This document shows positions 1,670 through 63,630 of a DNA stretch of 64,000 bases, piece after piece. Made by a program: the position numbers and the translations under genes. The stretch lies in NCBI RefSeq assembly GCF_009914755.1, contig NC_060935.1. One strand, written 5' to 3'. The notes under the pieces were generated by a model that was given only the letters and a program-made list of their open reading frames with translations, had not been told where the DNA came from and did not search any database. Position 1 is the first letter of the stretch. The number at the start of each line of letters is the position of its first letter. Source of the stretch: the human T2T-CHM13v2.0 reference genome, Homo sapiens.

Positions 1670-3250
1670 ATCCAGAATTCTACATTCAGCCAAAATGGTT
1701 TTCAAAGATGAGACAAAATTAAAGACATTTTCAGGTAACGAAGCTGAAATAATTCTTTGCCAGCAAACTTGTACTACGAGAAATAAGGAAAACTCTTCAG
1801 ATAGAATGAAAATAATACCAGATAAAAAATCAGAACTACAACACGAAATGGAGATGACTAACATGGTAAATATACGGGTAACTATGCAGGACTATGTATG
1901 TTTTTTCTTCTCCTAACAATCTTTAATAGACAACTGACTGCTTGGTAACATTTTATTGTGAAGTTAATAACATATGCAGAAGTAAAATACATGACAAAAA
2001 CATGGATTAAATGAAATTATTGAGAGATTCCTTCATTTTCTATAAATCTTTAATTCTAAATATGCTGTAATAAATTAAGGAAGTATGTTATAATTCTTAG
2101 AGCAGCCACTAAAAATGTAGTAAGAGGTATAACAAAAAAGCCAATAGCTCCTCAAAAGAATAATAAATTGATACACCCATATCAAGACTGACCAAAGAAA
2201 AAAAGAGAAACAACACAAATTAGCAATGTCATGAATAAAATAGGGTATCTCACTAGAGATTAAAATGGCATTTAAAAGATTAAAACAAATGTTACAAGAA
2301 CAATCAATCTCTTAAATAAAATTAATCAATTGTTTGAAAAATACACATACTAAAGTCAACACAAAACATAAGACTCCAAATAACGCTATTGCTGTGAAAG
2401 AAATAGAATTAACAAAAAATTTCCCCCTCAAAAAAGTCTGGTATATGTACATATATGTGTGCGTGTGTATATATATATGTGTGTGTGTGTATATATACAT
2501 ATATATACCTTTATGTATATAGGTATATATAGGTATATTTATATATACTCTATGTATATTTTTATGTATATACCTATATATATATACACCTTCATATATG
2601 TTATACATGTAAGAGAAGGTGTGTGTATATATATATATACATACACACATATATATACACATATACCAGAGTTTTTTATATGTAGGTATATATATAAAAT
2701 ATAAATATAAAAAATATATACAAATACAAATATTTATATATACACATATTTATACATTTATATATATTTATATATTATGTATTTATATTTTTTATATTTA
2801 TAAATATATATATTTTACATATAGTTATATATTTTTATATATTTATATATTTGTAATATATTTATATTTATATATATTTTTACATTTATATTTTATATAT
2901 ACTTATATAACTATACAATCAATATATATTTTATATACTGTCTATAAATACATATTTTACATAATATATATAATTTTACATGATATATAAATATATATAA
3001 TTTTATATGATATATAAATATATAATTTTATATAATATATTTATATATTTACAATATATTTTTACATATTTATATTTCTATATATTTTATATAATATATA
3101 TTTATATATTTATATATATTTCACATAATATATATTTATATATTATATAATATATACTCATAATATATTATATATTATACAATGTATAATATAAATATAT
3201 ATTATGTTATATAATGTATTATATATTATATGTTATATAATTATATAATA

Positions 3251-4113
3251 ATATATTATACAAGTATATTATAAAATATAATTATATTATACAAGTATAT
3301 TATAAAATATAATTATATTATACAAGTATATTATAAAATATAATTATATTATACAAGTATATTATAAAATATAATTATATTATACAAGTATATTATAAAA
3401 TATAATTATATTATACAAGTATATTATAAAATATAATTATATTATACAAGTATATTATAAAATATAATTATATTATACAAGTATATTATAAAATATAATT
3501 ATATTATACAAGTATATTATAAAATATAATTATATTATACAAGTATATTATAAAATATAATTATATTATACAAGTATATTATAAAATATAATTATATTAT
3601 ACAAGTATATTATAAAATATAATTATATTATACAAGTATATTATAAAATATAATTATATTATACAAGTATATTATAAAATATAATTATATTATACAAGTA
3701 TATTATAAAATATAATTATATTATACAAGTATATTATAAAATATAATTATATTATACAAGTATATTATAAAATATAATTATATTATACAAGTATATTATA
3801 AAATATAATTATATTATACAAGTATATTATAAAATATAATTATATTATACAAGTATATTATAAAATATAATTATATTATACAAGTATATTATAAAATATA
3901 ATTATATTATACAAGTATATTATAAAATATAATTATATTATACAAGTATATTATAAAATATAATTATATTATACAAGTATATTATAAAATATAATTATAT
4001 TATACAAGTATATTATAAAATATAATTATATTATACAAGTATATTATAAAATATAATTATATTATACAAGTATATTATAAAATATAATTATATTATACAA
4101 GTATATTATAAAA
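3251..4113. repeat. 31-bp minisatellite (attatattatacaagtatattataaaatata), about 28 near-identical copies
   Basis: caag recurs with a 31-bp period from 3261 to 4098. Confidence 0.95.
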
Positions 4114-4815
4114 TTATATATTATATAAGTATATTATAAAATTATATTATAAAATATAATTATATATATAATTATATTATAAAATATAATTATATTATAA
4201 AACAATTATATATAATTATATTACATAATATAATTATATATTACATATATAATTATATATAATATAATTTTATATGATTATGTAATTATATAGATAATAT
4301 AATTATATCATTATTATATAATATAATTATATAATATACTTATGTAACATAATTTTATAATAATTATGTATTATACAATTATATAATTATGTAATTGTAT
4401 ATTATATAATTATATAAATTATACAGTATATAACTATATATTATGTAATATATGTCATATAATATATAGGGATATATTATATATTTATATATTATATGAC
4501 ATATGTTATATATTCTATAATATATATATTATATTATAGTTATATATTATATTATAGTTATATATATTATAGAGTTATATATTAAATATATGTTTATATA
4601 TAATTATATATATTAATATATAGTAATATACTTATAAATATATATAAATATGTAGTTATATATTTATATATAATTATATACATTAATATGTAGTTATATA
4701 TTTATATAATATATTAATATAATATATAAATAATATATATTATATAAATACATATTTTATAAAATATTATTTTAATATTATATAAATATATATTTATACA
4801 TTAATACATATATTT

Positions 4816-4970
4816 TTATTATATATACATCATATATAAATATATAGGTGTATATATTTATATATACATCATATATAAAAATATAGGTGTATATATTTAT
4901 ATATACATTATATATAAATATATAGGTGTATATATTTATATATACATTACATATAAATATATAGGTATAT
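4816..4970. repeat. ~42-bp AT-rich tandem repeat, 3-4 copies
   Basis: Repeated tatatatacatcatatataaatatataggtgtatatattt; gives the 14-aa periodicity of ORF 4778..4993. Confidence 0.75.
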
Positions 4971-5847
4971 ATTATATATGAAGATATAGGCATATATATT
5001 TATATATATAGTACATAGAAATATATATACTATATATAATGTATATATAAATATATAGGTAGATATATTTATATATAATGTATATATAAATATATAGGTA
5101 GATATTTTTATATATACATTATATATAAATATATAAACATAAATTATATATAAATATATATAAATATATAAACAAATTATATATAAATATATAAAATTTA
5201 TATATAAATACATATAATTTATATATATTTATATAAATTATATATCTAAGTATAAAATTTATATAAAAATCTATATAAATTATATATATAAATATATAAA
5301 TATATATAAATTATATATAAATATATAAGTATATGTTAATTATATATAAATATATATACATTATATATAAATAATATATAAATTATATATAACTATATAT
5401 AAATTATATATAATTTATATTTTTTACATATATATTATATGTATTACATATAATATATATTATATATAATATATATGTATTATATATATTATATAATATA
5501 TATTATATATAATATATATTATATATATTATATAATATATATTATATATAATATATATTATATATATTATATATATGTTATATATATTATATATAATATA
5601 TATTATATATAATATATATTATATATATTATATATAATATATGTTATATATATTATATATAATATATATTATATATAATATATATTGTATATAATATATA
5701 TAACATATATTATATATAATATATATTATATATAATATATGTATTATATATTATATATATTATACATTATATATATATTATATATTATATATATTTAATA
5801 TATAATAAATATATACGATATATATGATATAATATATATTATATATA

Positions 5848-6068
5848 ATATATAAGATCTTATTATATATAATATATAAGATCTTATTATATATAATATA
5901 TAAGATCTTTTATATATAATATATAAGATCTTATTATATATAATATATAAGATCTTATTAATTAAATATATAAGATCTTATATATTATATATAGTATATA
6001 AGATCTATTATATTATATATAATATATAAGATCTTATTAATTATATATAATATATAAGATCTTATATA
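5848..6068. repeat. Tandem units built on the palindrome taagatctta
   Basis: agatct core recurs about 8 times in TA-rich spacers. Confidence 0.85.
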
Positions 6069-6096
6069 TTGTATATAGTATATAATACATATATAT

Positions 6097-6820
6097 TATA
6101 TATTACACATTATATAATAGATTGTATATATTACACATTATATAATAGATTGTATATATTACACATTATATAATAGATTGTATATATTACACATTATATA
6201 ATAGATTGTATATATTACACATCATATAATAGATTGTATATATTACACATTATATAATAGATTGTATATATTACACATTATATAATAGATTGTATATATT
6301 ACACATTATATAATAGATTGTATATATTACACATTATATAATAGATTGTATATATTACACATTATATAATAGATTGTATATATTACACATTATATAATAG
6401 ATTGTATATATTACACATTATATAATAGATTGTATATATTACACATTATATAATAGATTGTATATATTATACATTATATAATAGATTGTATATATTATAC
6501 ATTATATAATAGATTGTATATATTATACATTATATAATAGATTGTATATATTATACATTATATAATAGATTGTATATATTATATATTATATAATAGATTG
6601 TATATATTATATATTATATAATAGATTGTATATATTATATAATAGATTGTATATATTATATGTTATATAATAGATTGTATATATTATATGTTATATAATA
6701 GATTGTATATATTATATATAATATAATAGATTGTATATATTATATATAATATATATAATAGATTGTATAATATATATAATATATTGTATATATTATATAT
6801 AATATATATAATAGATTGTA
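6097..6820. repeat. 28-bp minisatellite (ttacacattatataatagattgtatata), about 18 regular copies then degenerate
   Basis: gattg recurs with a 28-bp period from 6120. Confidence 0.93.
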
Positions 6821-8499
6821 TAATATATATAATATATAATATATTATATATAATATAGTATATATAAAGTATATAATTATATAAATATAATTATATATTT
6901 ATATAAAGATATAAAATATATATACTTATATAGAGAGATATATATATACCTATATATAAAGGTATATGCATATAGGTATATATATATATATAAAAGGTAT
7001 ATGTACCTTCTCTTCTATTTTATATATATATGGGAGAAGGTATATATATACCTTCTCAGAAAAGAAAGAAAATCAGGTCCTTTACTAATTTTATGAAACC
7101 TCGTTTTAGCAGTTATTAAAATACTGAGAAAATATTACTTATAGAACAATTGCCTCATAGACACACATCCTTCATGAATACAGATGAAAAGACATACATT
7201 CTTCGTGAATACAGATTTAAAAAGTCTTTATTAAAACAGCAAATTGATTACAGCAATTTGTAAAAGGTATGATACATTTGAGCAAGTTAGATTTGTCCTA
7301 CGAATGCAAGTTTGATATAACTTTTGGAAATCAATCAGTGTAATTTACCACAATAACAAAATCAAGAGCAACAGGATCACCACACACAAAAAAAGCATTT
7401 TAGAAATTCAGTACCAATTCTATCAAAAACTATCAGAAAACCTGAAATATAAGGAAAGTTCCTCAATATCATAAAGGACAACTATGAAAAACCTACAAGA
7501 AACATTACACTTATATCACACTTAATGGTGAAGGATCAAACGCTATCCATCTATGAGCAGGGCAAGCATTGTCGGTACTCACTCCTTCCAGAAAACATGG
7601 TTGAAGTTCCTAGTTAGTCATTGCATAAAAGAAGAAGAAAAATATGTAAAAAGTACAGAGCTTGAACACAAAGAAACAAAATTATCTTTATTTACATATG
7701 ACATGATTATTCACATAAAAATTTTCAAGTAAACTCAAAGGAAATAAAACTACTAAAACCAGGAAGTGCATTTAGTCAGGTCTCAGGATAAGGGTTAATA
7801 TATAAAAATCTATTTCATTTCTATATTCCTGCACCAAACAATTGGAAAAATAAATTTTATAAAGTTTTATTTTGAATATGATCAAAAATACTAAACCTAC
7901 AGGGTTAGATTGAACAAAAATGTTCAAGAGCTTTGCAGACAAAACAAAATATTCCAGAGAAATTAAAGTATACCTAAATAAAGAGGGATTTGTACAATTT
8001 TCATGAATTGGAAGGGATAATTTCATAAAATGTAAATTTTCCCCAAAGCAATTGATGAATCTAATGTAATCCTAAACAAGATCCAATAAGCTTCTTTTTG
8101 GTAGAAATCAACAACTTACTCATAACACTTCTATGGAAAATCAAGAAAATAAAAACTCAGAATAACAAAACGTTCTTGGAAAATAGGAATAAACTCAGAG
8201 AATTCACACTACCAGATTACGTAGATTACTATAAAGCCAATGAAGACAGCGGGAATTTGGTACAAGGTAGACATACAGATTAGTGGAAAGAAACAGAATA
8301 GACTCCAGAAATAAAGTCACATATATGTGGTCAATAGCTTTTCAACAGAAGTGACAAGGCAATTCAATGAAGGAAATAAAAACCATTAAAAAAAAAATCC
8401 TACAACTGGAAACCCATTTTAAAAATAAATGAGCAATGAGCTTCACTCCTACGTCAAACTACATATAGAAATTGTTTTTTATTAATTAAAATTACATCA

Positions 8500-14880: not shown

Positions 14881-17129
14881 GGCACACTGTCTTTTGAGTG
14901 AGAGATTTTGCTTTGAGACTTTTGCTCCATTCGTGTTGTTCTGCTTTGCCAGATTAAAGCTACCATGGGGCACACTCACTCTCTCTATATCCCTTCCTTA
15001 AGTTGTCTCAAACAGTGTGACATTCACCTGAGAGATGGGACAGGAGATTCCCACCTTAATCCTGGCCTGCCATGAGTGGGGTCCAGTCACTGGTAGAGTC
15101 ACTTTTGCTCTCTGGGCCTCATCAGATTTTCAATCTGGTCACCAAGAGTCATGGCACCGGTGAGGAGAAATGTTTAGACTGTGACCTACTGATTAATGAA
15201 GCTGACGATCACACAGCCACCAGAAGCTTCTCACTCTTCAATTGAAGCAGGTAAAGACAGAGTCACTGTACTGTTCAGATACTTGGAAGGACACTGGAGG
15301 AAGTAACTTTCAGCATTTGTGTCAGGACATGAGGCCAGCAGCAGGAAAAGACACCACACTGGAAGGGAAGACACTGGGACCAGGATTGTTGGTAAGTAAC
15401 GGGGAGGAAGACGGTGGGAACCAAGCACGGAAGGAGTATATGGAACTTACTGGATTATTTTTCCTAATAAAGTTTCTATTAAAAAATAGTTTTAAGCTTG
15501 AACAGCTAGCATACCTGGTAGCATATTTTTCTGGCTTCTGGGTGGGGACTAGAGTGAAGAAGAATTATCAACAATTAACAAGGCTCCCAAAAGCCATCTG
15601 TGCCCTTTGTCTTGTGAACAGCTCTTAACACAGAAATTACATGCTCAGCAAATTACAACCAACCAGGTAGGACAGCAATAAGCCTCTGAAAAGCTCCTTT
15701 GTACTGGGGAAAGAGGATTATTCCTCAATTATATTTAGTCAAACTCCTCCACTATACTTCCTGTCCTTCCTCAATGTCCCAGTGGGTGCTTGAACAAATA
15801 AGCCGAATCTGATAATAGTAGTGTTCCTTTACTACACTAGTGGAAAAAATTGATTTTTAAAAAAGCTCAAATGTAACTTCTTACTCAGCATACACAATTT
15901 AAAAAGAATTTCAAACAAAGGACTACGTGTACAGAAAGTATTGTGTTACAAAGAGGGTCCACTCTGAACTCCCAAAGCACACACATCTCAGGGTGCTCTG
16001 GGCCTGTTTTCTCATGTGCAAAATGAGATGGTTGTCCCAGAAAAATCTCATCCTTATGGTTCTTTCCAGGTCTGACATTCTGTAGGGATAGTAATACATT
16101 AAAGTTTATTTATCTCAAAAGGCCTGTAGGTAATAAACTTTCACTAAATACCAAAAATAATACAGAATGAAACTTTAATAGTTATCTAATCTCAGATACC
16201 TTGGGAGAATATAAATTAGGAACAGGCATAGAAAATTGGAACAAAGACATAACAGCCTTGATATTAATTGTCTTGCTTATCTGTATAAAGCAGGGCTGAG
16301 GAACATATTTTGTTTGTTTTAGTTCATCAATTTCTTTTGTTCAGAGTAAGTATATGTTCAACAGAATAGAAGTGAATGCCGTTTTATTTTCTACTAATAA
16401 CATCCAAGGATGTGACTTCATGATTGCTTTTTTGTTTTTGTTGTTTTTTGCCATTTAGAATGACTGGAACAAAAGGAAAATAACCAATTGAGAATGACTA
16501 ATAGCATAAAAAGCAATGCTGAGATTTTGTTCTAGCTGATTCAAAATCTGAAGATTTGGAGATTTATGCTTGCCTGAAAAATGCTGCAGTGAAACACTAA
16601 GAGCCCAGAACACTTAGGATGACAAACTGTGAAATCACTCAAAGAAGGACTCATCAGCAGGTGCTAGGACCGAGATGGATAAAAAGAAAGATGCATAGGC
16701 CAAGTCCTATTATTCACACCTTCTAGAGTTTATGGTTTACTAATGAAAGCTTCTTGCATTAACCCTGGCCTGCAAAAACCCAGGACTGGAATGAAATGGC
16801 TATTTTTCAAGGCCATGCAATATAATTGATTGAAAGCAGACATACTGAGATTAAAATCAATAGCACAGTAAAGAGCACATCGCAGTACCCTTTACATATT
16901 GCTACATAGTTCCTGCTCAATAAATAATACCAGAATAGCAGCAGCAGCAGCAGCACTAGTGGTAAAAGCAGTCATATTAGAAGTGGTGACCGTAGCAGTA
17001 GCTATTATTGTTATGGTATTAAGTGGGAGATAGAAGACAAGTGCACTACTAGGGACAATCTCCTCTTCCCCTCTTGCTCTCCAGTATCAAATAGTCAAGA
17101 ATAATGGGAACTTTAGTAGGAGAAATAAA

Positions 17130-59898: not shown

Positions 59899-60349
59899 CT
59901 ACCAAATCACCAAACCTAATATATTAATGCTTATCTCCCAGTTTCTTCAGTGATTCCTGTGTTCACTCGGTGAATATATAATGAGTATCAATGGCTTCTA
60001 TGGCCAGGTACTAGGTATGAGTCCTAAACAAGACTGACCTGATCCCTTCCTTCATCCAGTTTAAATGCAGCTGATCTAAAAACTTCACTGTACCACTGGA
60101 GAGACACTTACACTAAGAGGAACACTGATCAAAAGTTAGAAGTGGAGACGTTTTCTTCCCTGAGACAAGCATGCACAGAAAGTGAGCTAAAAACATCCTG
60201 AGAAATCATTTTGCTCTTTCCTCTGCCTGCACAAAGGACACAGGCATTCAACCAGATATTCGTGGGTGGAATTTGCCCTCCCAATTCCCAGAACCATGCA
60301 TCCTCATTTGAAGGCCTCATTAGACCTGAATAGTCCTAATACATGAAGG

Positions 60350-60575
60350 CAAGAGCATGGTTGAAGACAAGCAGATCTAGGTTGAAATCCCAGCCCTGAA
60401 GCTCCATACCTGTGCCATCCTGAATAAATGCTTGATTTTCCTGGGCCTTACTTTCATTAGTCTATCAAAAAAAAAAAATGAGGGAAAATGCACCTATCTT
60501 GTGAAGTTGCCGTGATTCAATTAGCTAATCGAAATAAAGAAGCACACAGCATGTAGTGTTCAATAAATGTTGTTT
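60350..60575 (+). mobile_element. MIR
   Basis: ctaggttgaaatcccagccct ... gtagtgttcaataaatgtt. Confidence 0.6.
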
Positions 60576-60905
60576 CCTTATGCTGCAAGGTCCTGTCCAA
60601 ATGTTAACTCCTGTATTAAAGCATTCTTAATTTCCCTCGGCAGAGTAGGGAGCTCGGAGGTCTTGTCTAGTGTTCTCATCTTCACATGAATACAATTTTT
60701 AAAAACTATGTTACAAAAGTTTTTAGCCTGTGTGTTTCCTCCATTAAGCTACAAACTCTTTGAGGGTGGGGAATTTGTTATCTGTACCTGTGCAGCCCCA
60801 GCCCTAGTTCATTGCTTAGGATCTTTTATCTGTTCTTCTTCATCTCTACCCCCTGCAAAATTACCCTGACTTTCCCCATTAACAGGAGGTAAAAATAACA
60901 GGGGG

Positions 60906-62009
60906 TTAGGGAATTCCTTGGAGCATCCTCACAAATGAAAAAAAATTGCTTGGAAAATCCCTGCATCAGCTAGAGGTACTTACCCGCAGCGCAAGTTCCT
61001 ATAAATCTGCAGGTGAGTGGCCATGTATTTTTGACAGCCAAAACAAGAAGGAAATGTGAATATTTACATGACCTGATGTGCAAAAGGAAAAGATAAACCA
61101 GAGGCATTAGGGAAGCATAATTATCTTTGGTATTAAAACCAGAGAATCATTTCTCTGGGGCCTCACACAGAGGATACTTTAATTTAATTAACAATACCTC
61201 CAAGAGCATCTTTACAATACATATGACCCACAACAAAAAGACCATAACCATGAAATCTAGGGACATTCCTGCTGGTTATTTGCAATGTAGAGATAGATTT
61301 TATAATACCTAGAGGAACAAATGAACAGTATAATCTTCAGACAGTCCTCCTTAAACATTGTTTTCTCAGAGCCAGTTCAACATGTATAGAGGGAGCATCT
61401 GCAACTTTGAGAATCTACTTCCTGAAGAGTAGAGCTTAGTGGTAGTCTCTTCCTACAACAAACATGTGGCCTGCGTGGAGGTTTTTGATCTGCATAATTG
61501 ATGACTATTTAGAAACATTCCTGAAGAATAATACCTTCTCTAAGAAGTGAGGTTTAAGACATTACATAAAAGGGATGACTGCAGAACCAAGTGGATCCCA
61601 TCCCTCACATTAGCAAGAGGTATTGAAATAATTTCAAGGTATTCAAATAATTTCAGTAATTTCATGGTCCTGGCCTTTTTGTTGTGCATGATATTTACAG
61701 TAAAGATGCTCTTGTAGGCATTGTTAATTATATTAAACCTTATCCTCTGTTAGGCCCCAGAGAAATGATTCTCTGGTTTTAATACCAAGAGATAATTGTG
61801 CTTCTCTAATGTGTCTGGTTTGCCTTTTTCTTTTGCACATCAAGACATTAAATATTCACATTTCCTCCTTTCTTTGGGCTTCCAAAAATATGTGGCCACT
61901 CACCTGCAGATTTATAGGACTTGGCACTGCAGGTAAGTACCTCTAGCTGAGACAGAGATTTTCCAAGCAATTTTTTCCATTTGTGAGGATGCTCCAAGGG
62001 ATTCCCTAA
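60906..62009. repeat. Inverted repeat pair A (60906-61256) / A' (61659-62009)
   Basis: ttagggaattccttggagcatcctcacaaatg ... ccatgaaat is the reverse complement of atttcatgg ... catttgtgaggatgctccaagggattccctaa; roughly 80-90% identity by eye. Confidence 0.93.
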
Positions 62010-62551
62010 GAGTATTGCTTAATGTTTAAGAACTCAGGATCTGGACTCATACTGACCTTAACTACTATTAATTCTGTGACCTTGGGAAAATCACTTAACC
62101 TCTCTAAGCCTCAGCGTTCTTGTCTGTAGAATGTGGATAACAACAGAAACTATATCATAAAGTGTTGTGGGCATAAAATAAGAACGTGTGAAAAGTGCTT
62201 AGTTCAGTGGATGGGAAGCGGCAAGCATTCAATAAAATGCTAATTATTAACACACGTTTTGAATGGCAAACTCATTAACTCTCCTAAGTAGTGATTTCTT
62301 TCAATTGAATTATATTATACTTCCCTCTGGCTTATAATCTCTATTCATTCTTAATAGGGGTATAATTCAATACCTCTTGCTAATGTGAGGGATGGGATCC
62401 ACTGGATTCTGCAGTTATGCCTTTTATGTAAGGTTTTATGCCTCCCTCTTTAGAGAAGGTATTATTCTTCAGGAATGTTTCTAAATGATCATGAATCATG
62501 CAGCTCAAAGACCTCCACACAGGCCACATGCTCCTTGTTAGAGGAAACTAC
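61442..62551. repeat. Inverted repeat pair B (61442-61631) / B' (62363-62551)
   Basis: gtggatcccatccctcacattagcaagaggtattgaa and tttagaaacattcctgaagaataataccttctctaa each have exact reverse complements in B'. Confidence 0.93.
62010..62250 (+). mobile_element. MIR, near full length
   Basis: tgtgaccttgggaaaatcacttaacctctctaagcctcag core. Confidence 0.85.
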
Positions 62552-63379
62552 TTTGGCTTCTGCCCAGAGTGTTTCCCTCAGGTTTCAGAGTCAAATGCTA
62601 TTGTTTCAGTATTTCTGTGAGACTATTCAATAATCATTATTAAACACCTACTGTGTTCCAGGCACAGTGTTTGGTCCTGAGTCTGTTACACTGAACAAGA
62701 TGAGATCCCTCCTTGCATGGCCTCAGGGCAGGCTCTCCTGGAGCTCCCTGACACCTATGTACCAGCACTTCAACACAAAGATGGTCAACATTGGAGCCTT
62801 CTAAGACCCTGGTCCGGCTCACTGTCAGCCTTGGGCCCAGGCCAGGAGGAAGGCCAGCTGGTTGCAGCAGGTGCAGATGCATTTTCCTGCCCACTGTCCT
62901 GGTGCCCAATTCTCTGGATGCTCATAGTCTCCTTTGGAGGCTCTAGACTCTTTAAAACAATCTTGATAAAAGTAAGTCTTTGTGATTCATTTTTATGAAC
63001 ATTCAATTTTATGAACACTGACTGAGCTCAGGAAGCAAGTGGAATCCACATGTCTGTTAGGGCCTTGGCATGTTCAGCTCCTCTTAAAGTGGTCTGTGCT
63101 TGAGAAGCAAAGACAAAAGTAACTCAGAGTGGCCACCAACAGGAGACATGAGATTTATTTTCATTCTCTTTCTGTAAGCACGTTTTTGATCAGAACTGCT
63201 CCTCTTTGTGTCTCCAGAGAACAGCCTGTGTCTTACTCAGATCCCTTATTAAAATCCTGACATCCCTGGGTCTTATTAAGGTAAGAATTCTTGCTTGCAT
63301 CTATCTCTCTGTGTCTAGATTCTTGTAACATTTTACGTCAGACAGACTTTAAAGAGTGCAAGGAAAATGTATATGTGTT

Positions 63380-63630
63380 TGAGTAACTTCTATGTATCAA
63401 GCACTGAATACAATTATTATTTTACTTAATTCCCAAAGTAAAAGGAAGTGATAGCTTTATTTTATATAGAGAGGTTTATTTTATATAGGAGGAAGCGCTG
63501 GTAGATAGGTGTCAGGGAGCTCCAGGAGATGTAGAGAGGTCAAGCAACTTGCCCAAGATCATAAAGCAAGTGAACAACTGAGTTGGGACTGGAACCTAGG
63601 TCTAACTCCAAAGCTACATTTTCAACTCTA
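63380..63630 (-). mobile_element. MIR
   Basis: agagaggtcaagcaacttgcccaagatcata. Confidence 0.7.

What the first reader, a model, noticed from the sequence alone, without database searches (positions are those of the whole stretch)
60906..62551. Interleaved double inverted repeat (A-B-A'-B') of apparently non-TE sequence
Seen: A (~350 bp) pairs with A' and B (~190 bp) pairs with B' in crossed rather than nested order. The central B-A' block (61442-62009) is the reverse complement of A joined to B'. Its joint carries a short tandem duplication (aggtattgaaataatttca aggtattcaaataatttca gtaatttca). Exact runs of 30+ nt persist among indels, and a MIR abuts A'. Inference: a ~550-bp element has an inverted copy of itself nested in its middle (template-switch rearrangement). 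If transcribed it could form two long helices in pseudoknot topology; as DNA it is an inversion substrate. If the MIR postdates the duplication, arm similarity implies selection or arm-to-arm conversion.
Basis: partly seen in the sequence, partly recalled or inferred. Interest (0 to 1): 0.8.

Follow-up and report, generated by a model that had tools for sequence, protein, structure and literature searches.

The report
Fossil crossed inverted duplication, RAB38 locus
Two stretches of unique human DNA were long ago copied backwards and dropped side by side between their own sources, leaving a criss-cross pair of inverted repeats that looks like a decaying scar of a replication or repair accident, not a working element.

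Summary
A (60906-61256) pairs with A' (61659-62009) at 310 of 346 aligned bases. B (61442-61630) pairs with B' (62363-62551) at 163 of 189. The order is crossed, and a 19-nt tandem duplication spans the B|A' joint. The arms are not copies of a dispersed repeat. In the whole T2T genome A and B each match only themselves and their partner, and the 185-nt piece between A and B matches only itself. The neighbouring MIR, used as a control, gave 127 candidates.

My best reading is that the ancestral order was A-G-MIR-X-B'. A single replication or repair template-switch event then inserted rc(B') joined to rc(A) at one site, the G|MIR boundary. The arms differ by K2P 0.127, about 0.064 per arm. The MIR copy lies 0.273 from a consensus of other copies. 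The MIR is therefore about four times older, and the event is probably primate-age.

I found no sign of conversion or of selection for RNA pairing, and no Rfam family or notable ORF. The ancestral state could not be tested because no outgroup genomes were available. This is a large, two-piece member of a known kind of rearrangement, and its interest is low to moderate.

The parts
60906..61256 (.). Arm A (351 nt), probably an original (source) segment
   Evidence: Aligns to rc of 61659-62009 at 310/346 bases with 9 indel events, K2P 0.113. It has only two places in the whole genome, itself and A'.
61257..61441 (.). G: a 185-nt unique spacer between A and B, absent from the inverted copy
   Evidence: Single place in the genome. 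No homology to L, M, R or itself in either orientation (z <= 0.4 in the five comparisons that involve G).
61442..61630 (.). Arm B (189 nt), probably the inverted copy of B'
   Evidence: Aligns to rc of 62363-62551 at 163/189 bases with no gaps, K2P 0.154. It has only two places in the genome.
61631..61658 (.). J: the 28-nt joint between B and A', made entirely of slippage duplication (19 nt + 9 nt) that spans the joint. The repeat array itself is 61618-61664.
   Evidence: TRF finds 61618-61655, period 19, 2.0 copies, 94% matches. The 9-nt partial copy at 61656-61664 is read. The B homology ends at 61630 and the A' homology starts at 61659, so removing 19 + 9 nt leaves a blunt, zero-gap fusion.
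61659..62009 (.). Arm A' (351 nt), probably the inverted copy of A
62010..62242 (+). MIR SINE copy whose 5' end sits at the A' boundary. It is older than the duplication.
   Evidence: 127 genome-wide candidates. The nhmmer alignment reaches window 62242. The copy is 77.5% identical (218 aligned bases, K2P 0.273) to a consensus of 52 other copies, and those copies have a median of 76.8%. Conservation among 20 copies begins 0-5 nt before 62010.
62243..62362 (.). X: about 120 nt of unique sequence between the MIR and B'. Together with the MIR it forms spacer M.
   Evidence: No genome hit covers this part of the query: hits cover positions 56-205 of the 353-nt query. No homology to the left flank in inverted orientation (z = 0.4).
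62363..62551 (.). Arm B' (189 nt), probably an original (source) segment

Best explanation
This is a fossil of one complex, local rearrangement of unique DNA. It is not a transposon and not a working element.

**Proposed history.** The ancestral order was L-A-G-[MIR-X]-B'-R, about 1.08 kb from A to B'.
1. DNA synthesis (replication or break repair) that had reached the end of G left its template.
2. It copied the opposite strand backwards through B', which made B.
3. It jumped about 540 nt to the end of A and copied A backwards, which made A'.
4. It returned to where it had left, the start of the MIR.

The result is a 540-nt two-piece inverted insertion, B joined to A', at a single site. This automatically gives the crossed order A-B-A'-B'. 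An equivalent two-step version is a complete inverted copy of A-G-M-B' nested at the G|M point, followed by loss of its central ~540 nt.

**After the event.** The B|A' fusion was blunt. It then, or at once, underwent two slippage duplications of 19 and 9 nt. Since then both pairs have decayed neutrally to about 88% identity. That places the event roughly a quarter of the way back to the MIR insertion, probably within primate evolution.

**What is shown and what is inferred.**
- Shown: the repeat geometry, locus specificity, relative ages, and the absence of any selection or conversion signal.
- Inferred: which copies are the originals, whether it was one step or two, the enzymology, and the absolute date.
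For: 1. The structure is real and far beyond chance (E = 1.3e-110 and 2.2e-56).
2. It is locus-specific. A and B each have 2 places in the 3.1-Gb genome and G has 1. The same search with the MIR stretch found 127 candidates down to 72% identity, so a dispersed family would have been seen.
3. The copies B and A' are adjacent at one site, with a joint made only of slippage duplication that includes bases from both sides. That is what a novel junction looks like. A and B' are embedded in unique sequence.
4. G and M are unique and unrelated to each other or to the flanks. They are most simply ancestral sequence that was not copied.
5. The divergence of A/A' and B/B' does not differ (310/346 vs 163/189, Fisher p = 0.26), which fits one event.
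6. The MIR copy lies at K2P 0.273 from its family consensus, against 0.064 per arm. The MIR was therefore already there.
7. The decay looks neutral: ts:tv 39:23, 9 indel events in A, only 3 CpGs left in the four arms, no conversion-like tracts, and no wobble skew.
8. The kind of event is documented.
   - Adjacent double template-switch events have been reported (PMC9435742, passages).
Against: - No outgroup genome was available, so the ancestral arrangement is inferred by parsimony only.
- By eye on the sequence, I saw no microhomology of 2 nt or more at any of the three inferred novel junctions (G|B, B|A', A'|M). That fits blunt end-joining better than microhomology-mediated switching.
- The copied tracts (189 and 351 nt) and jump distances (about 400-920 nt) exceed those reported for short-range template-switch mutations, where the longest is 318 bp.
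- The copy is in two pieces, so it needs one more switch, or a later deletion, than the simple four-point model.
- The insertion point coincides within about 5 nt with the 5' end of a near full-length MIR. I treat this as coincidence. My rough estimate, not computed, is that finding one of several junctions this close to some repeat end has a chance of about 10%.
- B shows mild clumping of differences (variance/mean 1.99; longest-run P = 0.048).
Confidence: 0.6

Rival explanations
1. A contiguous ~550-bp element A·B' received a complete inverted copy of itself exactly in its middle, a single template-switch event of type 3-1-4-2 with a zero-length spacer. G and M were added at the two new junctions, either as filler at the time or later, the MIR arriving by retrotransposition.
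For: - Once the 28 nt of slippage are removed, the central block is an uninterrupted reverse complement of A joined to B', with zero gap.
- The MIR's 5' end sits at the A' boundary, as expected if it inserted at that junction.
- The 3-1-4-2 type is documented.
Against: - It needs two separate large additions, 185 nt and 353 nt, at exactly the two junctions.
- G and the non-MIR part of M have no other copy in the genome that could have served as a filler source.
- The slippage array would have to fall by coincidence exactly at the point in the copy that matches the insertion point.
- A MIR insertion after the event conflicts with the MIR being about four times more diverged than the arms, unless conversion is also assumed.
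Confidence: 0.12
2. The central block B·A' is the original sequence. A and B' are inverted copies of its two halves, placed to the left of G and to the right of M. In this reading the copies are the outer arms, not the inner ones.
For: - The geometry alone cannot tell source from copy.
- The A'|MIR junction would then be an ordinary ancient SINE insertion site.
Against: - It needs two insertion sites and four novel junctions instead of one site and three junctions.
- The two copies would have to be cut from the source at exactly the same nucleotide, since there is zero gap and zero overlap after removing the slippage.
Confidence: 0.1
3. Two independent inverted template-switch insertions happened at the same site at different times, first one of rc(A) or rc(B') and later the other.
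For: - B/B' is nominally more diverged than A/A' (K2P 0.154 vs 0.113).
- Each step alone is the commonest repeat-creating type of template-switch event, 1-4-3-2 or its mirror 3-2-1-4, which make up 31% of events.
Against: - The difference in divergence is not significant (Fisher p = 0.26).
- Two hits at the same nucleotide are unlikely.
Confidence: 0.1
4. The duplication is ancient and predates the MIR. The arms have been kept alike by gene conversion or by selection for a long double-stranded or pseudoknotted RNA, for example within a RAB38-region transcript.
For: - A near full-length MIR starts within about 5 nt of the arm boundary.
- The helices would be very stable: cofold -479 to -493 kcal/mol for A:A' and about -268 to -270 for B:B'.
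- B shows mild clumping of differences.
Against: - There is no wobble skew (15 vs 24 transitions, p = 0.20). In addition, 23 transversions and 9 indel events break pairing on either strand.
- The longest exact runs are as expected by chance in A (P = 0.20).
- No Rfam family matches.
- The homology does not continue on the far side of the MIR (z = 0.4).
- Whether the region is transcribed is unknown.
Confidence: 0.04
5. The arms are two copies of a transposable element, one inserted into the other in opposite orientation.
For: Nested insertion is the commonest cause of such patterns in human DNA (general knowledge). About 35% of the window is masked as repeat (hub annotation).
Against: - No third copy of A, B or G exists anywhere in the genome, whereas the MIR control is found many times.
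- I saw no poly-A, terminal repeat or target-site duplication at the block ends (by eye).
- G and M are left unexplained.
- Two copies of a family old enough to have left no other trace would not be 88% alike.
Confidence: 0.02

Closest known systems
Template-switch mutations of the four-point model, type 3-1-4-2 and adjacent double events (Löytynoja & Goldman 2017, PMC5453318; Löytynoja 2022, PMC9435742; passages read)
   Same: - A reverse-complement copy of nearby sequence is inserted without loss of the original.
- Type 3-1-4-2 yields two inverted repeats in the same crossed order P-Q'-P'-Q.
- Double events at one site have been reported.
- The events are described there as a mutational process that needs no positive selection (abstract passage).
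   Different: - The scale differs. The copied tracts here are 189 + 351 nt, with jumps of about 400-920 nt. Published events mostly lie within tens to hundreds of bp, and the longest is 318 bp.
- The copy here is discontinuous: it skips about 540 nt of the source.
- The event is old (about 12% arm divergence). It was detected as a repeat, not as a cluster of differences between species.
Inversions flanked by inverted duplications from staggered breaks (Ranz et al. 2007, PMC1885836; passages read)
   Same: - Ancestrally unique, non-repetitive sequence is duplicated in inverted orientation at both ends, giving the P-Q'-...-P'-Q order.
- Duplicate sizes are comparable (median 321 bp, range 46 bp to 1.9 kb).
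- Duplicate identity is comparable (88% ± 5.4).
   Different: - There the duplications flank a large inverted chromosomal segment. Here nothing lies between Q' and P' except 28 nt of slippage.
- Here G and M separate P from Q' and P' from Q, which that model does not predict without an added deletion.
FoSTeS / MMBIR complex rearrangements (named in the PMC9435742 passage; details recalled)
   Same: Serial template switches during replication or break-induced repair join nearby segments in mixed orientation.
   Different: - Those events are usually kilobases to megabases long, are found as disease-associated copy-number changes, and have microhomology at the junctions.
- Here the event is sub-kilobase and fixed. 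I saw no microhomology of 2 nt or more (by eye).
Inverted Alu pairs and other inverted-repeat dsRNA sources (recalled)
   Same: If transcribed, an intramolecular duplex several hundred bp long at about 88% identity could form.
   Different: - The arms are unique sequence, not SINEs.
- The two pairs are crossed, so they compete in nested folding.
- No transcription or editing evidence was available here.

Membership tests
Dispersed transposable element (nested insertion) | Multiple related copies elsewhere in the genome | tested here: not met
   A has 2 places, B has 2 and G has 1 in the 3.1-Gb genome, all at this locus. The positive control, the MIR stretch, gave 127 candidates.
Dispersed transposable element (nested insertion) | Terminal hallmarks: target-site duplication, poly-A, or terminal inverted or long terminal repeats | tested here: inconclusive
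   I saw none by eye at 61442 / 62009 or at 60906 / 62551. Old hallmarks could have decayed, and no Dfam search was possible.
Template-switch mutation (four-point model) | The inserted fragment is the reverse complement of nearby sequence at the same locus | tested here: met
   B = rc(B') at 163/189 bases and A' = rc(A) at 310/346 bases, with sources 400-920 nt away.
Template-switch mutation (four-point model) | One contiguous 2->3 fragment copied from the source | tested here: not met
   The copy joins two source segments that lie 538 nt apart (G + M). It needs an extra switch or a later deletion.
Template-switch mutation (four-point model) | An ancestral allele or outgroup lacks the inverted fragment | not testable with these tools
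   Only the human T2T genome was searchable. The genome search states that this genome has no relatives held.
Staggered-break inversion with flanking inverted duplications | Two inverted-repeat pairs in crossed order P-Q'-P'-Q, made of ancestrally unique sequence | tested here: met
Staggered-break inversion with flanking inverted duplications | An inverted unique segment lies between Q' and P', with P abutting Q' and P' abutting Q | tested here: not met
   Only 28 nt of slippage lie between B and A'. G (185 nt) and M (353 nt) intervene at the other two junctions.
MIR SINE (for 62010-62242 only) | Similarity to many dispersed copies, with divergence typical of the family | tested here: met
39 scored non-self hits at 72-89% identity. 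The copy is 77.5% identical to a consensus of 52 other copies, which themselves have a median of 76.8%.
Functional structured RNA or long dsRNA element | Pair-preserving substitutions, or membership of a curated family | tested here: not met
   Transitions are 15 vs 24 wobble-compatible on the + vs - strand (p = 0.20), with 23 transversions. There is no Rfam match in the arms. Cross-species covariation was not testable.
Active NAHR inversion substrate | Long tracts of uninterrupted identity between the inverted arms | tested here: not met
   The longest exact runs are 37 nt (A) and 38 nt (B). The threshold of roughly 130-230 bp for efficient mammalian recombination is recalled, not looked up.

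The most novel reading that the evidence does not exclude
The duplication predates the MIR insertion, whose intact 5' end lies at the arm boundary. It would then be well over 100 million years old, and the two crossed repeat pairs would have been held at about 88% identity by recurrent arm-to-arm gene conversion or by selection for a very long intronic double-stranded or pseudoknotted RNA in the RAB38 region.
Probability: 0.04. Interest if true: 0.7.

Novelty: new member of a known kind. Interest (0 to 1): 0.3.

Why it matters
The locus is a clean, datable, sub-kilobase example of a multi-step inverted templated insertion in unique human DNA. Its size lies between the short template-switch mutations (tens of bp) and the large FoSTeS/MMBIR rearrangements (kb to Mb). 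If outgroup genomes confirm the predicted empty site, it would show three things:
- the same kind of event operates at intermediate scale in the germ line;
- it can create several-hundred-bp inverted repeats de novo from non-repetitive sequence;
- crossed inverted repeats are its natural signature.

That is useful for repeat annotation, for reading local 'palindromes' correctly, and for understanding where non-Alu dsRNA-forming loci come from. Nothing found here suggests a function at this particular locus.

Tried and rejected
- **Homology continuing beyond the MIR.** I looked for the A/A' homology on the far side of the MIR, which would have shown that the MIR inserted into an arm. The left flank against rc(62240-62362) gave z = 0.4, so there is none.
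- **Hidden homology among the unique pieces.** Eight further comparisons among G, M, L and R, in both orientations, gave z between -0.8 and 1.5.
- **Polarising the event with the MIR 5' end.** I asked whether the end of G or the end of A' supplies the first MIR bases. Only about 2-5 nt are at stake and both fit about equally, so this was uninformative. A first profile was contaminated by an unrelated repeat upstream of one copy (L033). I rebuilt it from the MIR stretch alone.
- **Splicing as the cause of the missing 540 nt.** This would mean a retro-copied antisense transcript. By eye there is an AG before the A' source but no GT after the B' source, and there is no poly-A. Rejected.
- **A reverse-transcriptase jump from the MIR RNA 5' end.** Rejected because the ages differ about four-fold and no tail or target duplication is visible.
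- **Microhomology at the three junctions.** None of 2 nt or more (by eye).
- **Rfam.** The only hit is sub-threshold and outside the structure: SpF25, 29.7 bits against a gathering score of 48, at 62966-63059.
- **ORFs.** Nine ORFs of 40-80 aa, none notable.
- **Literature.** 'RAB38' + 'inverted repeat' returned 3 papers. Five phrases for crossed or interleaved inverted repeats returned 14 papers, of which 12 were listed. None is relevant by its listing.

Full report
**1. What is there**

Reading 60500-63000 and running repeat detection on 60000-63500 gives this layout:

| Part | Coordinates | Length |
|---|---|---|
| A | 60906-61256 | 351 nt |
| G | 61257-61441 | 185 nt |
| B | 61442-61630 | 189 nt |
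| J | 61631-61658 | 28 nt |
| A' | 61659-62009 | 351 nt |
| M | 62010-62362 | 353 nt |
| B' | 62363-62551 | 189 nt |

The left flank (L) precedes A and the right flank (R) follows B'.

Gapped alignment:
- A vs rc(A'): 310 of 346 aligned bases identical (89.6%). There are 10 gap columns in 9 indel events, and K2P is 0.113.
- B vs rc(B'): 163 of 189 identical (86.2%), with no gaps, and K2P is 0.154.
- Combined: 473 of 535 (88.4%), 39 transitions, 23 transversions, K2P 0.127.

The order A, B, A', B' is crossed, so the central block 61442-62009 is the reverse complement of A joined to B'.

**2. More than chance, and not a dispersed repeat**

The whole T2T genome (3.1 Gb) was searched with each piece.

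| Query | Places found | Note |
|---|---|---|
| A | 2 | itself and A', E = 1.3e-110 |
| B | 2 | itself and B', E = 2.2e-56 |
| G | 1 | itself only |
| M | 127 first-look candidates | 40 scored, 39 non-self at 72-89% identity, all over positions 56-205 of the query (the conserved core of a SINE) |

The result for M shows that the search detects old dispersed families. A, B and G are therefore locus-specific. The tool warns that its counts are lower bounds, but for A, B and G the first look produced no further candidates at all. Two copies of a family too old to have left any other trace would also not be 88% alike. The nested-transposon explanation is rejected.

**3. The joint**

TRF finds a 19-nt unit in 2.0 copies at 61618-61655 with 94% matches. 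A 9-nt partial copy follows at 61656-61664 (read). The B homology ends at 61630 and the A' homology begins at 61659. The 28 nt in between equal 19 + 9, so they are fully accounted for by these two slippage duplications, each of which contains bases from both B and A'. The original B|A' fusion was therefore blunt, with no gap and no overlap. The slippage happened at or after the fusion. That is what a newly created junction looks like.

**4. The spacers**

G and M share no detectable homology with each other, with the flanks, or with themselves in either orientation. Nine local alignments against shuffles gave z between -0.8 and 1.5. In particular the A/A' homology does not resume beyond the MIR (z = 0.4), so the MIR did not split a longer arm.

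**5. The MIR**

I used 29 other loci fetched from the genome and the rest of the window.
- nhmmer alignments of other copies begin in a pile-up at window 62008-62014. Model column 85 corresponds to 62010.
- A MAFFT alignment of 20 copies that reach the 5' region shows family-wide conservation starting 0-5 nt before 62010 and none further upstream.
- The copy is therefore essentially complete at its 5' end, and that end coincides with the A' boundary. The few bases at stake fit the end of G and the end of A' about equally, so this does not polarise the event.
- The copy (62017-62236) is 77.5% identical over 218 aligned bases (K2P 0.273) to a consensus of 52 other copies. That is typical of the family: 33 other copies have a median of 76.8% and a range of 68.2-82.8%.
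- Each arm is only about 0.064 from the arms' common ancestor, half of 0.127.

On a neutral clock the MIR is about four times older than the duplication.

MIRs are generally held to have been active before the radiation of placental mammals (recalled). Linear scaling then puts the duplication within primate evolution, roughly 25-60 million years ago depending on the rate assumed. This date is an inference.

**6. Which arrangement was ancestral**

There is no outgroup, so this is parsimony.

- **(a) Ancestral L-A-G-M-B'-R, with rc(B') + rc(A) inserted at the G|M point.**
  - It needs one site and three novel junctions (G|B, B|A', A'|M).
  - G and M are explained as uncopied ancestral DNA.
  - The messy joint J is a novel junction.
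  - It creates no age conflict with the MIR.
  - The same result comes in two steps if a complete inverted copy was nested at G|M and then lost its central ~540 nt.
  - It needs two further large additions at exactly the two junctions.
  - It needs a coincidental slippage array at the midpoint of the copy.
  - It needs either a source for G and X that no longer exists or a post-event MIR insertion, which conflicts with the ages.
- **(c) Central block original.**
  - It needs two insertion sites and four junctions.
  - It needs two copies cut from the source at the same nucleotide.

I favour (a) at about 0.6. One cost of (a) is that the insertion point falls within about 5 nt of the MIR's 5' end. 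With several junctions and several repeat ends per kilobase, I estimate roughly a one-in-ten chance of one such coincidence. This estimate was not computed.

**7. Mechanism**

[quoted passage not shown] It accounts for 1% of 794 human-chimp events (PMC5453318, passages). Its product, P-Q'-S'-P'-Q, has the crossed order seen here.

The locus can also be read as a 1-4-3-2 event (copying B') and its mirror 3-2-1-4 (copying A), back to back at one site. Adjacent double events have been reported, and local template switches typically stay within tens to hundreds of bp, with a longest of 318 bp (PMC9435742, passages). The present event is larger and its copy is in two pieces.

The staggered-break model for Drosophila inversions gives the same crossed duplications of unique sequence at similar sizes and identities: 17 of 29 inversions, median 321 bp, 88% identity (PMC1885836, passages). 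That model predicts an inverted unique segment between the inner copies and direct abutment of the outer and inner copies. Neither is seen here.

I saw no microhomology of 2 nt or more at the three junctions (by eye). I therefore leave open whether the joins were made by a switching polymerase or by end-joining after fill-in synthesis.

**8. Function**

I found nothing that points to one.
- Differences are spread evenly in A (variance/mean 0.76 per 25 columns) and are mildly clumped in B (1.99, on only 7 bins).
- The longest exact runs (37 nt in A; 37 and 38 nt in B) are not, or only barely, longer than shuffles give (P = 0.20 and 0.048).
- Only 3 CpGs remain in the four arms, all in A and B.
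- Transitions that would keep a G:U pair number 15 on the + strand and 24 on the - strand (p = 0.20). Another 23 transversions and 9 indel events break pairing on either strand.
- No Rfam family matches in the structure. ORFs are 40-80 aa.
- If the region is transcribed, nested folding uses A:A' (317-323 pairs) and none of B:B'. B:B' forms 154 pairs only when A' is blocked. The two helices compete unless a pseudoknot forms, which these tools do not model.
- The hub table places the window inside the annotated span of RAB38 (- strand), with no exon in the window. I could not test transcription, editing or polymorphism.
- As recombination substrates the arms are now poor, with 38 nt or less of uninterrupted identity. 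They would have been good substrates just after the event (inference).

**9. Verdict**

The structure is real, locus-specific and correctly described. The template-switch idea is supported in a modified form. The selection or conversion idea is not supported. It is a large, old, two-piece member of a known kind of rearrangement. The decisive missing test is the arrangement in other primates and mammals.

Noticed in passing
window 2687-6993: A ~4.3-kb extremely AT-rich tandem array. TRF reports a 31-nt unit in 35.5 copies at 93% matches (3248-4336), inside a longer degenerate TA-rich tract. It is largely self-complementary, so the repeat finder reports many zero-spacer inverted pairs up to 450 nt. 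Such AT-rich, hairpin-prone tracts are the kind associated with replication difficulty and fragile sites (recalled). Whether this relates to the rearrangement 55 kb away is unknown.
   Followed up: partly
window 60970-61107 (-) and 61809-61946 (+): Both A and A' keep a 45-codon ATG-to-stop ORF at the corresponding position, although indels put the middle part in different frames. At 38% GC this is probably chance. I ran no family search.
   Followed up: no
window 61000-61018, mirrored in A' at about 61897-61915: The longest perfectly shared stretch in this part of A/A' contains TATAAA followed by a consensus-like 5' splice-site motif, CAGGTGAGT (read). No annotation or test was available.
   Followed up: no
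window 62966-63059 (+): A sub-threshold Rfam match to a Streptococcus sRNA family (SpF25): 29.7 bits against a gathering score of 48, E = 0.048. Almost certainly chance.
   Followed up: no
window positions near 14884, 17554 and 63612: Three further MIR-like copies in the window were picked up by the copy-derived profile.
   Followed up: no
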